Source of the DNA: Candidatus Omnitrophota bacterium
GTDB lineage: Bacteria > Omnitrophota > Gorgyraeia > Duberdicusellales > 4484-171
Length of the DNA: 64,000 nucleotides
Reading direction: 5' to 3'
Assembly (NCBI GenBank): GCA_021735655.1
Contig: JAIPGM010000002.1
Location: 1 to 64,000, forward strand
Shown here one piece after another: positions 59,263-61,134 of this stretch (position 1 is its first letter; every line of letters begins with the position of its first letter). The position numbers were made by a program, and so were the translations under genes. Below the pieces are notes generated by a model. The model ran no database searches, was not told the origin of the DNA, and saw nothing but the letters and a program-made list of their open reading frames with translations.

Positions 59263-59925
59263 ATGAGAAAAGGATTTACCCTAATCGAACTAATAGTGGT
59301 CATTGCAATTATTGCAATTTTAGCTGCCATTATTGCTCCTAATGCTTTTAAAGCTATTGAGAAGGCAAAGATTGCAAAAACTATAGCCGAATTAAGGGTT
59401 TTCAAAACTGCTGCACATTCTTTGTATTCTGATACTGGTCGATGGCCAGGCTCTGGCGGAATTGGACCTATTGCTCAGTGGGTTTATCTTGATAATGGAT
59501 TAATTTGGCCGAGAACCCCTGCTGGTTTAAATAGCAGCTTGTTTGATAATGATGATGGAGTAGGAAATACAATTTCTGGTTGGGACGGACCGTATCTTGA
59601 TCGCCGATCATCTAAATCCGCTTGGGGTGGAACTTATGCTATGTATAAACGTTACAATGGTTTTCCTCAAACTGGATCTAGTGCCGGCGATCTTACTCTT
59701 GTTATTACTAGCATTTGTTATGGGTCACTTAATTCAGTGCTATCTAACAGGAATTGCCCTTTGAGTGAAGAATTAGCGGAGATAATTAATGGTAAAATTG
59801 AAGGCGACAATGATTTACGTTTTGACCAATCAACCGCCGGAAATTTTAGAAAGTTCCTTTGGGCTAACTCGGGTGATACTTGGGAAGGTTTTTATCATTT
59901 CATGATTGGAGAAGACGTTTTATAG
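59263..59925 (+). CDS. Type IV pilin-like protein (prepilin N-terminal cleavage/methylation domain)
   Basis: MRKG|[25 protein letters not shown] with Glu+5. Confidence 0.8.
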   Translation: [220 protein letters not shown]

Positions 59926-59938
59926 GGGGAGGCATCCC

Positions 59939-60496
59939 ATGAAAAAATCATTCACTCTAATCGAACTTATAGTAGTCATCGCTATTATAGCTATCCTTGC
60001 CGCAATTATTGCCCCGAATGCTTTTCGGGCTATTGAGAAGGCGAAGGTGGCTCAGGTGGTATCAGATTTAAAGACATTTAAAACAGCTGCTGTAGGTTAT
60101 TATGGGGATACTGGGCAGTGGCCACCAGATGGGGTTAGTTGGTTTACTGATGAAGAGCTGCAGTTTTTCATTACTGGAGTAGGGCAACCAGCAGGCTGGG
60201 ATGGACCCTATTTAGAAAGTTGGCCAAATCCACCTTGGCATTGTGAATTTGTCTATGGTGCTGATACGGTTCATGAAAATTATGATTGGGACCACTGGGT
60301 GGGGTGGTCTTATTGGGGTGTAGTGCCTGCGAATACTGATACTTGCGGTGCAAGTATTTCATGCGTTCCTCAAAAGTCAGCGACAAAGATAGATGTTAGT
60401 TTAGATGACGGTAACCCTTCTTCGGGCAGGGTTCGTTGGGTCAGCTCATATGCCGGTGGTTTCATGAATGCAATTATCATCGAAGGAGGACAGTAA
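59939..60496 (+). CDS. Type IV pilin-like protein, paralog 2
   Basis: [44 protein letters not shown] RBS before the ATG at 59939. Confidence 0.8.
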   Translation: [185 protein letters not shown]

Positions 60497-60531
60497 AGGC
60501 CTGATTTGCATTGATAAGAGAAATAACTACT

Positions 60532-61134
60532 ATGAAAAAATCATTTACTCTCATTGAACTAATTGTAGTCATAGCTATCATTGCTATCCTTGCTGCAATC
60601 ATTGCTCCCAATGCCTTTCGTGCCATTGAGAAAGCTAAAATTACAAAAACCATTGCTGATCTAAAAGCCATAAAAACTGCCATTGGGGCTATGTATGCTG
60701 ATACTGGAAAATTTCCCAGCGGCTGTATTGCCTTTACCGTCAATGACCCTGAAGTTAATTTAGATACGGCACAGGCAGGGTTGGTATCCGAACCTCCGGT
60801 TGGAATTTTTACTGGCGCTACCGGCGGCACTTGTGAGTGGACCCAAGCTAATGTCAATTCTTGGGATGGTCCTTACCTTGAAAGCGGGCAAGTAAAGGAT
60901 GTTTGGCATTCAGCATATCATTATGACCCTGATTATTATTATTGCATAAATGGATATTTAAGCCCAGCTGGAGACGGGCCAATAACTAATTGCGGTGACG
61001 CTCCGGTAGCTCAAACTTGTCTAGAGGTATGCGGCGGCGCCTTTAACTGTGGCTTTCCAGTAATACAATCATTTGGCCCTGACAAAAGCGGTTATGGTTG
61101 TGATGATATTATAGTAAAAATGACACTCAATTAG
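60532..61134 (+). CDS. Type IV pilin-like protein, paralog 3
   Basis: Same N-terminal 35 aa as paralog 2, Cys-containing variable C-terminus. ATG at 60532. Confidence 0.8.
   Translation: [200 protein letters not shown]

What the first reader, a model, noticed from the sequence alone, without database searches (positions are those of the whole stretch)
59263..61134. Three tandem pilin paralogs sharing a near-identical ~100-nt 5' cassette with divergent 3' ends
Each gene starts with essentially the same nucleotide sequence encoding [36 protein letters not shown], then diverges completely (the third is Cys-rich). A fourth, decayed copy lies 2.4 kb downstream (63537-63674). Conserved 5' cassettes with variable 3' ends are the substrate for recombinational or antigenic variation of type IV pili, or for several minor-pilin isoforms. 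The atypical post-helix motif APNAF-x-AIEKAK is shared by all four.
Basis: seen in the sequence. Interest (0 to 1): 0.6.

Follow-up and report, generated by a model that had tools for sequence, protein, structure and literature searches.

The report
Tandem GspG-like pilin paralogs, Omnitrophota
Three neighbouring genes in an uncultured Omnitrophota bacterium encode old, distinct versions of a pilus-subunit protein that share an almost identical front end because the protein needs it, not because the DNA is a recombination cassette, so the cluster is an ordinary member of a large, already annotated family.

Summary
The genes are real: g1 59263-59925, g2 59939-60496 and g3 60532-61134, plus a 45-codon stub g4 at 63537-63674, all on the + strand. 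An independent assembly reproduces them at 100% identity.

The "near-identical 5' nucleotide cassette" is not there. The first 36 residues are 33-36/36 identical, but the DNA is only 76-84% identical. Almost all differences are synonymous (g2 vs g3: 18 synonymous, 0 non-synonymous). Exact shared runs are 17 nt or shorter.

The N-terminus [25 protein letters not shown][KR]AIEKAK is the signature of a large Omnitrophota family of GspG-like type IV filament pilins. NCBI already annotates these genes as GspG or prepilin-type proteins.

The bodies are not hypervariable. g2 and g3 each have orthologues (62% and 58% identity) side by side in another genome's array, and g3 belongs to a conserved eight-cysteine subfamily. 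No 5'-less silent cassettes exist.

Best reading: co-transcribed alternative or co-polymerising subunits for a secretin and PilB/GspE-like machine encoded elsewhere in the genome.

One twist: adjacent paralogues in two related arrays do share exact 91-98-nt 5' tracts, so gene conversion occurs in the family, though not recently here.

Ordinary; low interest.

The parts
59263..59925 (+). g1: 220-aa GspG-like type IV filament pilin paralogue (leader MRKG|FTLIE). It is the most divergent body and the only member of its cluster.
   Evidence: ORF and sequence. Pfam N_methyl 32.2 bits, above the 21.2 cut-off; T2SSG 18.8 bits, below the 21 cut-off. Exact protein P0159 is annotated by NCBI as a prepilin-type domain protein. 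Best non-self hits are 45-48% identical. It is a singleton in the C-terminal-domain clustering.
59939..60496 (+). g2: 185-aa GspG-like pilin paralogue (leader MKKS|FTLIE). It starts 13 nt after the g1 stop, behind GGGGGAGG at 59925-59932.
60532..61134 (+). g3: 200-aa, 8-Cys GspG-like pilin paralogue with C-terminal [19 protein letters not shown]. It starts 35 nt after the g2 stop.
63537..63674 (+). g4: 45-codon N-terminal stub of a family member (L10P, 3-codon deletion, stop after AIEKAEEVKCPLGGKIRI). It is a probable gene remnant that keeps TGATATAAT (63507-63515) and GAGGAGG (63524-63530).
   Evidence: N_methyl 19.3 bits, below the 21.2 cut-off. No pilin-body homology lies downstream. Downstream genes are a PilZ protein, hisF and others.
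59248..59256 (+). TGGTATAAT, an extended -10-like motif 6 nt upstream of the g1 ATG with no Shine-Dalgarno between them. It is a possible promoter giving a leaderless or near-leaderless g1-g2-g3 transcript (inferred).
   Evidence: Read directly from the sequence. It was not listed by the two-hexamer scan. Untested.
59136..59211 (+). tRNA-Glu(CTC) immediately upstream of the cluster, with a promoter-like TTGACA-16-TAGAAT at 59093-59120 (context only).
   Evidence: ARAGORN. Rfam tRNA 56.9 bits. Promoter scan 11/12 matches.
61282..61463 (+). tRNA-Glu-like remnant downstream of g3: a 36/39 copy of the anticodon and T arm (61282-61320), a 132-nt GC-rich insert, then an 11/11 copy of the acceptor 3' end (61453-61463). 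With the intact tRNA it brackets g1-g3. Its significance is unknown.
   Evidence: (D5).

Best explanation
g1, g2 and g3 are three anciently diverged paralogues of an Omnitrophota-wide family of GspG-like type IV filament (T4F) subunits, that is pilins or pseudopilins. They form a compact, probably co-transcribed 'orphan' cluster away from the assembly genes.

Proposed mechanism:
- Each product is inserted in the inner membrane by its hydrophobic N-terminal helix.
- A prepilin peptidase cuts it after the 4-residue leader (G|F in g1, S|F in g2 and g3).
- A T4F machine encoded elsewhere in the same genome polymerises it. That machine is a secretin plus a PilB/GspE-like ATPase with a c-di-GMP-binding MshE-type motif, and family member P0261 sits next to it.

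Why the front ends match: the near-identical 36-residue N-terminus is held by purifying selection, because every subunit must fit the same peptidase, platform and helical filament core.

What the bodies do: the different C-terminal globular domains are what the filament displays. The paralogues are therefore alternative or co-polymerising subunits with different surface properties, not switchable variants of one gene.

g4 is a decaying N-terminal stub of a former family member.

Shown: family membership, fold, selection pattern, orthology, and the presence of a machine elsewhere. Inferred: cleavage, co-transcription, polymerisation, and which machine is used.
For: Family and fold:
- N_methyl and T2SSG domains; the best NCBIfam model is GspG.
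- AF2 models with pLDDT 88 show a 52-residue N-terminal helix plus a beta-sheet head.
- In the PDB profile search, only PulG aligns beyond the helix.

Purifying selection rather than DNA homogenisation:
- g2 vs g3 have 36/36 identical residues with 18 synonymous codon changes.
- pS is 0.51-0.96 and dN 0-0.08 over codons 5-36.
- Identical-codon counts are 8-19 of 32 against 12.8 expected.

Family-wide signature:
- The N-terminus is invariant or nearly invariant in 38 sequences from many genomes.
- 78 of 291 proteins have the identical 32-mer.
- 523 clusters at 50% identity match g2 at E<=1e-10.

Ancient, conserved paralogues:
- g2 matches L088_d at 62% (body 56%, E 2e-59) and g3 matches L088_b at 58% (body 52%, E 4e-55). 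Window paralogues match each other at only 27-37% over part of the body.
- The g3 subfamily has conserved cysteines and a conserved C-terminus.

Dispersed, multi-copy family:
- The same source contig carries P0134, P0178 and P0261 as well.
- Singletons sit inside housekeeping operons.

Machine elsewhere:
- L094 carries a secretin, a PilB/GspE-like ATPase (623 and 588 bits) with the MshE c-di-GMP motif (58 bits against a 38-bit cut-off), a pilin-like protein, and P0261.
- About 45 of the window's other ORFs were scanned against Pfam, and none encodes a pilus or T2SS component.
Against: - No expression, cleavage or filament data exist for any family member.
- Ser at -1 in g2 and g3 departs from the canonical Gly. 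The family overall has G 121, S 114, A 31. Processing is therefore assumed, not shown.
- TIGR01710 (GspG) scores are below its cut-off: 52-62 bits against 88.85.
- The link between g1-g3 and the L094 machine rests only on family membership of the neighbouring P0261.
- Co-transcription is inferred from 13- and 35-nt gaps and the lack of convincing terminators.
- g1 has no close orthologue, so its conservation argument is weaker.
Confidence: 0.75

Rival explanations
1. Recombinational or antigenic variation system. The conserved 5' segments would act as homology tracts that let 3' bodies be exchanged, deleted or placed behind a different promoter. g4 would be a promoter-bearing acceptor or a leftover of such an event.
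For: - In relatives, adjacent paralogues of different subfamilies share exact 5' tracts with sharp edges: 98 nt in L096, and 91 and 65 nt in L088/L097. Identical-codon counts there are 25-30 of 32 against 12.2 expected.
- g4 is an N-terminal stub that keeps promoter-like and Shine-Dalgarno motifs.
- The Logan assembly graph breaks exactly inside g2's 5' segment.
- Array composition differs between genomes.
Against: - In this organism the 5' segments are at synonymous saturation, and the longest shared run among the seven copies examined is 20 nt or less.
- The bodies are conserved orthologous lineages, not hypervariable.
- No 5'-less silent cassettes exist.
- All copies are direct repeats, so recombination would delete genes rather than switch them.
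- No site-specific recombinase or invertase was seen among the neighbouring genes or the roughly 45 window ORFs scanned.
- The identical tracts in relatives are equally well explained by occasional, unprogrammed gene conversion between tandem repeats.
Confidence: 0.1
2. A minor-(pseudo)pilin set analogous to GspH-I-J-K or FimU-PilV-W-X. It would form a priming or tip complex for a filament whose major subunit is encoded elsewhere, for example P0261.
For: - A cluster of three or four distinct pilin-like genes recurs (window; L088).
- They lie away from a machine locus that has its own adjacent pilin.
- The bodies are larger (181-216 mature residues) than canonical GspG.
Against: - All three match GspG best. 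GspH and GspJ models score only 16-27 bits on the N-terminus, against cut-offs of 65-80.
- All three keep Glu5 and an N-terminus identical to the putative major subunit P0261, unlike canonical minor pilins.
- Family members also occur as singletons in unrelated operons.
- Array composition is not fixed.
Confidence: 0.12
3. Assembly artefact: collapsed or duplicated repeats, or a chimeric join at the g1/g2 boundary.
For: Logan contigs end and start within g2's 5' segment with only a 28-nt overlap, so the g1-g2 adjacency relies on the MAG assembler.
Against: - Both Logan contigs are 100% identical to the window over 9.6 kb and 4.1 kb.
- The copies are only 76-84% identical, so they cannot be collapsed or duplicated reads.
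- None of the fetched paralogues shares the junction 24-mer.
- Comparable arrays exist in other genomes.
Confidence: 0.03

Closest known systems
GspG / PulG / EpsG, the major pseudopilin of the type II secretion system (TIGR01710, PF08334)
   Same: - Class-III leader with Phe+1 and Glu+5, and a long alpha1 helix with the (A/V)PN...EKA segment.
- D(T/N)GxYP-like and W-x-GPYL motifs.
- g3 keeps a GPD-x5-CDDI C-terminus resembling PulG's GPDG...NDDI (my reading of the sequences).
   Different: - Scores are below the equivalog cut-off: 52-62 bits against 88.85.
- Mature length is 181-216 aa, against about 130-140.
- At least six full-length paralogues per genome, scattered or in arrays, not one gene inside a gspC-M operon.
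- Ser is often at -1.
- There are extra insertions, and g3 has eight cysteines.
Heteropolymeric or alternative major pilins encoded side by side (for example Streptococcus sanguinis PilE1/PilE2, PDB 8pfb; Thermus thermophilus PilA4/PilA5, 6xxd/6xxe)
   Different: This is a resemblance from my own knowledge of those systems, not tested here. Those paralogues are few and sit in the pil locus, whereas here the bodies are far more divergent and the genes are remote from the machine.
Neisseria pilE/pilS antigenic variation
   Same: Multiple pilin-related sequences with conserved and variable parts; recombination between copies is seen in relatives' arrays.
   Different: The architecture is the opposite. 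pilS copies lack the promoter and the conserved 5' region and share variable-region homology with pilE. Here every copy has its own start and 5' region, there are no 5'-less cassettes, and the bodies are conserved between genomes.
PVC-superphylum pilin-like paralogue expansions (DUF1559 / H-X9-DG proteins of Planctomycetota, Verrucomicrobiota and Lentisphaerota)
   Same: Near-identical N-terminus (x)[16 protein letters not shown]..., many dispersed paralogues per genome, and a variable -1 residue. The genome scan with the family's N-terminal patterns was swamped by these proteins.
   Different: After residue ~20 the PVC proteins read LLPAL/LLPAV...AR and carry different bodies. No DUF1559-type Pfam hit was obtained for g1-g3. 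The APNAF-x-AIEKAK, DTGxWP and WDGPYL signature is specific to the Omnitrophota-type family.

Membership tests
Type IV filament pilins (prepilin-type N-terminal cleavage/methylation domain; PF07963 / TIGR02532) | Short basic leader, then Phe+1, Glu+5 and a hydrophobic segment of about 20 residues; the model scores above its cut-off | tested here: met
   N_methyl 32.2, 28.3 and 28.3 bits against 21.2 for g1-g3. TIGR02532 36.1, 22.7 and 22.8 bits against 16.3. g4 scores 19.3 bits, below the cut-off.
Type IV filament pilins (prepilin-type N-terminal cleavage/methylation domain; PF07963 / TIGR02532) | Gly at position -1 for prepilin-peptidase cleavage | tested here: inconclusive
   g1 has Gly; g2, g3 and g4 have Ser. 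Across 291 family proteins the counts are G 121, S 114, A 31. Whether Ser is cleaved was not testable.
Type IV filament pilins (prepilin-type N-terminal cleavage/methylation domain; PF07963 / TIGR02532) | 'Lollipop' fold: a long N-terminal helix packed on an antiparallel beta-sheet | tested here: met
Type IV filament pilins (prepilin-type N-terminal cleavage/methylation domain; PF07963 / TIGR02532) | Cleavage, N-methylation and polymerisation by a PilD/PilB/PilC-type machine | not testable with these tools
   A secretin and a PilB/GspE-like ATPase exist elsewhere in the organism. No peptidase or platform gene was seen in the DNA available.
GspG, T2SS major pseudopilin (TIGR01710 equivalog) | Score at or above the equivalog cut-off of 88.85 bits | tested here: not met
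   52.0, 62.0 and 55.0 bits for g1, g2 and g3.
GspG, T2SS major pseudopilin (PF08334 T2SSG domain) | Pfam T2SSG at or above the gathering score of 21 bits | tested here: met
   g2 31.4 bits and g3 27.3 bits; g1 only 18.8 bits, so not met for g1.
GspG, T2SS major pseudopilin | Encoded within a gsp operon next to GspC-F and GspH-M | tested here: not met
   None of the roughly 45 window ORFs scanned encodes a T2SS or pilus component. The neighbours are a tRNA, a TPR protein and two unassigned ORFs.
pilE/pilS-type antigenic variation | A repertoire of promoterless, 5'-truncated silent cassettes homologous to the variable body | tested here: not met
   tblastn of 289 family bodies against the window and four other contigs of the organism hits only the full-length genes. 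The one truncated copy, g4, is the opposite kind: 5' only.
pilE/pilS-type antigenic variation | Long, near-identical DNA tracts shared between copies; a hypervariable body | tested here: not met
   The longest exact run in this organism is 20 nt or less. Bodies are 52-56% conserved with orthologues in another genome, and up to 83% for g3.
Minor pseudopilins GspH/I/J/K | Match to the GspH, GspI, GspJ or GspK equivalog models | tested here: not met
   GspH scores 22-26.5 bits against 80, on the N-terminus only. GspJ scores 15.7 bits against 64.85. GspI and GspK gave no hit.

The most novel reading that the evidence does not exclude
The invariant ~100-nt 5' segment is not only a protein constraint. 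It would also be a working recombination handle for Omnitrophota pilin arrays. Episodic gene conversion or unequal crossing-over at this segment is already seen as exact 91-98-nt tracts between adjacent, otherwise unrelated paralogues in L088/L097 and L096. Such events would shuffle, delete and re-promote display domains. On this reading g4 is a promoter-bearing 5' stub left by, or available for, such an event, and the array is a slowly reshuffling domain library used in host or prey attachment.
Probability: 0.12. Interest if true: 0.55.

Novelty: new member of a known kind. Interest (0 to 1): 0.27.

Why it matters
The locus itself matters little. It is an ordinary cluster from a large, already annotated but experimentally untouched family of GspG-like pilins.

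Three points have modest value:
- It is a clean example of how protein-level identity can look like a DNA cassette. Counting synonymous sites settles the question.
- It documents that Omnitrophota, thought to be largely host-attached nanobacteria with near-universal type IV pili (PMC10066038), carry at least six full-length dispersed paralogues per genome. These share one invariant N-terminus and have conserved, distinct heads, and they are candidates for attachment specificity.
- Exact 5' tracts in two other arrays show that partial gene conversion acts on this family, which could be surveyed across the phylum.

Tried and rejected
- Exact-protein look-ups of g2 and P0001 found no contig. The source was reached through neighbouring genes instead.
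- The genome-contig scan with the full-length alignment chose N-terminal patterns and was swamped by Planctomycetota, Verrucomicrobiota and Lentisphaerota look-alikes. Only L004-L007 were of the Omnitrophota type.
- The metagenome scan with g3 bodies only gave just 6 loci.
- Silent cassettes were searched for and not found. Weak minus-strand hits beyond the window belong to a small membrane protein with a degenerate pilin-like N-terminus, not to a pilin body.
- A shared motif downstream of g3 and P0178 (TTTCCAATC...) is only 9-mers at E 0.12, so it was dropped.
- GC content of the cluster (0.39-0.46) is not clearly foreign compared with the window mean of 0.41, so the tRNA-bracketed 'islet' idea stays unproven.
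- Rfam found nothing in the structured intergenic region.
- Literature searches found no description of this paralogue family or of pilin 5' concerted evolution.
- The cause of the Logan contig break in g2's 5' end was not found.
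Full report
**What is in the sequence**

The + strand carries three tandem ORFs between 59263 and 61134. Each begins with a class-III (prepilin) signal.
- g1: 59263-59925, 220 aa, leader MRKG|FTLIE.
- g2: 59939-60496, 185 aa, leader MKKS|FTLIE.
- g3: 60532-61134, 200 aa, leader MKKS|FTLIE.

A 45-codon copy, g4, lies at 63537-63674. It has Leu10->Pro, a 3-codon deletion and an early stop. A motif scan of all six frames finds no other pilin-like ORF in the 64-kb window.

g1-g3 are separated by 13 and 35 nt. g2 is preceded by GGGGGAGG. 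g1 is preceded by TGGTATAAT six bases before its ATG, with no Shine-Dalgarno sequence. No convincing terminator separates the genes. Co-transcription is therefore likely but inferred.

**Check of the observation**

At protein level the first 36 residues are 33-36/36 identical among g1-g3. At DNA level the first 108 nt are only 75.9-83.8% identical, and the longest exact shared run is 8-17 nt. The repeat finder agrees, at 70-86%.

The differences are almost all at third codon positions. g2 and g3 differ at 18 codons, all synonymously.
- Nei-Gojobori pS over codons 5-36 is 0.51-0.96, with dN 0-0.08, for all pairs among six full-length paralogues of this organism.
- The number of identical codons is 8-19 of 32, which is what genome codon usage predicts (12.8).

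The '~100-nt near-identical cassette' is therefore a protein-level identity, not a DNA one.

The genes also do not 'diverge completely'. Similarity continues to about nt 186 at 71%. All three share DTGxWP and WDGPYL and hit the T2SSG domain.

The repeats are not an assembly artefact. Two Logan contigs from run SRR12088349 are 100% identical to window 50376-59968 and 59941-64000. This is a different assembler, though possibly the same reads. One oddity is that these contigs abut inside g2's 5' end with a 28-nt overlap. None of the paralogues I fetched shares that 24-mer, so the cause of the graph break is unexplained.

**What the proteins are**

Domain and family matches:
- Pfam gives N_methyl for g1-g3 and T2SSG for g2 and g3; g1 is just below threshold.
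- The best NCBIfam model for each is GspG (TIGR01710), but at 52-62 bits against a cut-off of 88.85. Minor-pseudopilin models hit only the N-terminus.
- The exact proteins are in NCBI as 'type II secretion system protein GspG' or 'prepilin-type N-terminal cleavage/methylation domain-containing protein [Candidatus Omnitrophica bacterium]', from a 322,746-nt contig.

Structure:
- AlphaFold models of g2 and g3 (pLDDT 88) show a helix over residues 7-58 and a beta-sheet head.
- In a profile search of PDB sequences, only PulG aligns beyond the helix.

They are therefore type IV filament subunits, closest to GspG, but they do not pass the GspG equivalog test.

**The 'cassette' is a family signature**

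In an alignment of 38 family members from many Omnitrophota assemblies, the N-terminal residues F5...K34 are invariant or nearly so. Among 291 family proteins retrieved, 78 have exactly [32 protein letters not shown]. The -1 residue is G in 121, S in 114 and A in 31.

A full HMMER scan finds 523 clusters at 50% identity with E<=1e-10 to g2.

The APNAF-x-AIEKAK segment lies inside the alpha1 helix. It corresponds to the xPNxxxxxEKA segment of GspG.

**The bodies are old and conserved, not variable**

A 1.62-Mb Omnitrophota contig (L088) carries a tandem array of four family members.
- g2 matches its fourth gene at 62% (body 56%, E 2e-59).
- g3 matches its second gene at 58% (body 52%, E 4e-55).
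- g1 matches its first gene weakly, at 39%.
- The window's paralogues match each other at only 27-37% over part of the body.

g3 belongs to a subfamily of about 28 full-length relatives at 44-83% identity. That subfamily has invariant Cys65, 101, 138, 154 and 190 and a conserved ...GPDKxxY(T/S)[11 protein letters not shown] end. g2 has orthologues at 64-71%. g1 is the exception: its best non-self hits are 45-48% identical, and it clusters alone.

The duplications therefore predate the divergence of these genomes.

**Genomic habit of the family**

The same source contig also encodes P0134 (g3-type), P0178 and P0261.
- P0134 sits after surA-pdxA-ksgA.
- P0178 sits after PAS and HD-domain proteins.
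- Other members sit singly inside housekeeping operons.
- The closest g2 and g3 orthologues are in yet other contexts.

P0261 lies directly after a locus with these components, as typed:
- a secretin (GspD 217, PilQ 193, MshL 181 bits);
- a PilB/GspE-like ATPase (623 and 588 bits, below both cut-offs) carrying an MshE-type c-di-GMP-binding motif (58 bits against 38);
- another pilin-like protein.

About 45 of the window's other ORFs were scanned against Pfam, and none encodes a pilus or T2SS component.

The published survey of the phylum reports type-4a pilus genes in nearly all Omnitrophota. It does not discuss this paralogue family (PMC10066038).

**Test of the recombination idea**

Evidence against it at this locus:
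- The 5' segments are synonymously saturated.
- There is no long identity tract.
- All copies are complete and directly oriented.
- No recombinase was seen among the neighbouring genes or the roughly 45 window ORFs scanned.
- tblastn with 289 family bodies finds no 5'-less cassette in the window or in four other contigs of the organism.
- Downstream of g4 there is no pilin body; the next genes are a PilZ protein, hisF and hisI.

Evidence for it elsewhere in the family:
- In L088/L097, three adjacent paralogues of different subfamilies share 25-30 of 32 identical codons (12.2 expected), with exact runs of 91 and 65 nt.
- In L096, two adjacent paralogues share an exact 98-nt run.
- In every case the tract starts within 3 codons of the cleavage site and ends at ...AIEKA, with unrelated sequence on both sides.
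- By my own binomial estimate from the numbers, 30 of 32 has a probability of about 5e-11.

Gene conversion of the 5' segment therefore happens in tandem arrays of this family. It has not happened recently here, and nothing suggests a programmed switch.

**Most likely mechanism**

g1-g3 are alternative or co-polymerising subunits. They are cleaved after the 4-residue leader and assembled by a T4F machine encoded elsewhere. The shared N-terminus is constrained by the common peptidase, platform and filament core, and the different heads are displayed on the filament. g4 is a decaying stub. Confidence is about 0.75.

Shown: membership, fold, selection pattern, orthology, and a machine elsewhere. 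Inferred: cleavage (especially after Ser), the operon structure, which machine is used, and polymerisation.

Rivals:
- A minor-pilin tip set, about 0.12.
- A recombination or variation system, about 0.10.
- An assembly artefact, about 0.03.

**Side observation**

The cluster is bracketed by tRNA-related sequence. Upstream is tRNA-Glu(CTC) at 59136-59211, with a strong promoter-like site. Downstream are:
- a 36/39 copy of its anticodon and T arm at 61282-61320;
- a 132-nt insert with 54% GC;
- an 11/11 copy of its 3' end at 61453-61463.

The region 61255-61470 folds unusually well, with z = -4.7. It matches no Rfam family and is unique among the sequences held. It could be an integration scar, an interrupted pseudo-tRNA or an unknown RNA. 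I could not decide which.

**Verdict**

This is a real but ordinary feature: a new member of a known kind, already annotated. Interest is about 0.27.

Noticed in passing
window 61255-61470 (core 61282-61320, insert 61321-61452, 61453-61463): A tRNA-Glu-like remnant lies downstream of g3. It has a 36/39 copy of the anticodon and T arm (the anticodon position reads CTT), a 132-nt GC-rich insert (54% GC against 34% in the flank) at the T-loop position, then an exact copy of the tRNA 3' end. The region folds at -84.7 kcal/mol (z = -4.7), has no Rfam or ARAGORN call, and has no other copy in the window or loci. With the intact tRNA-Glu at 59136-59211 it brackets g1-g3. It could be an att-like scar, an interrupted pseudo-tRNA or an unknown structured RNA.
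   Followed up: partly
L088 9419-11123, L097 5848-7540, L096 461-1200: Adjacent pilin paralogues of different subfamilies share exact 65-98-nt 5' tracts with sharp boundaries (25-30 of 32 identical codons against about 12 expected). This indicates gene conversion of the N-terminal segment in relatives' tandem arrays, in contrast to the saturated 5' segments in the window.
   Followed up: yes
window 59941-59968 (L092 end / L003 start): The independent Logan assembly breaks exactly inside g2's 5' segment, and the two contigs overlap by 28 nt. None of the fetched paralogues shares that sequence, so the source of the graph branch (strain variant or unseen paralogue) is unknown.
   Followed up: partly
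L094 308-6573 (same organism, outside the window): A type IV filament machine locus: an STN-domain protein, a secretin with TPR repeats, a PilB/GspE-like ATPase with an MshE-type c-di-GMP-binding motif, a 230-aa pilin-like protein, then family member P0261 followed by a strong terminator hairpin. By model scores the locus cannot be classed as either T2SS or T4aP.
   Followed up: partly
window 63507-63760: The g4 stub keeps an extended -10-like TGATATAAT and a GAGGAGG Shine-Dalgarno sequence. A 38-aa ORF (63644-63760) encoding a predicted transmembrane peptide overlaps its 3' end.
   Followed up: no
window 63902-64000 (continues to L003 4318), and L003 4486-4818, minus strand: A PilZ-domain gene runs over the window's end. 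Beyond it lies a small protein with a degenerate pilin-like N-terminus, KKGFASLISIVV (no Glu5). A GGDEF protein is at 48517-49800. These are possible c-di-GMP links to pilus control, but purely circumstantial.
   Followed up: partly
window 61620-62543 and 62540-63460: Two overlapping ORFs of about 306 aa lie between g3 and g4 with no family assignment. The second is weakly STELLO-glycosyltransferase-like (23 bits, below the cut-off).
   Followed up: no
g2, g3, g4 position -1 (window 59948-59950, 60541-60543, 63546-63548): Ser replaces the canonical Gly before the predicted prepilin cleavage site. Across 291 family proteins, Ser (114) is almost as common as Gly (121). This suggests a peptidase with relaxed -1 specificity in this phylum.
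   Followed up: partly
window 3856-12629 and 35021-36046: A block of oxidative-stress genes: desulfoferrodoxin, ferritin-like protein, rubredoxin-dodecin fusion, peroxiredoxin, a Cu/Zn-SOD fusion, DJ-1 and hemerythrin. Separately, there is an AbiEii toxin-family gene.
   Followed up: no
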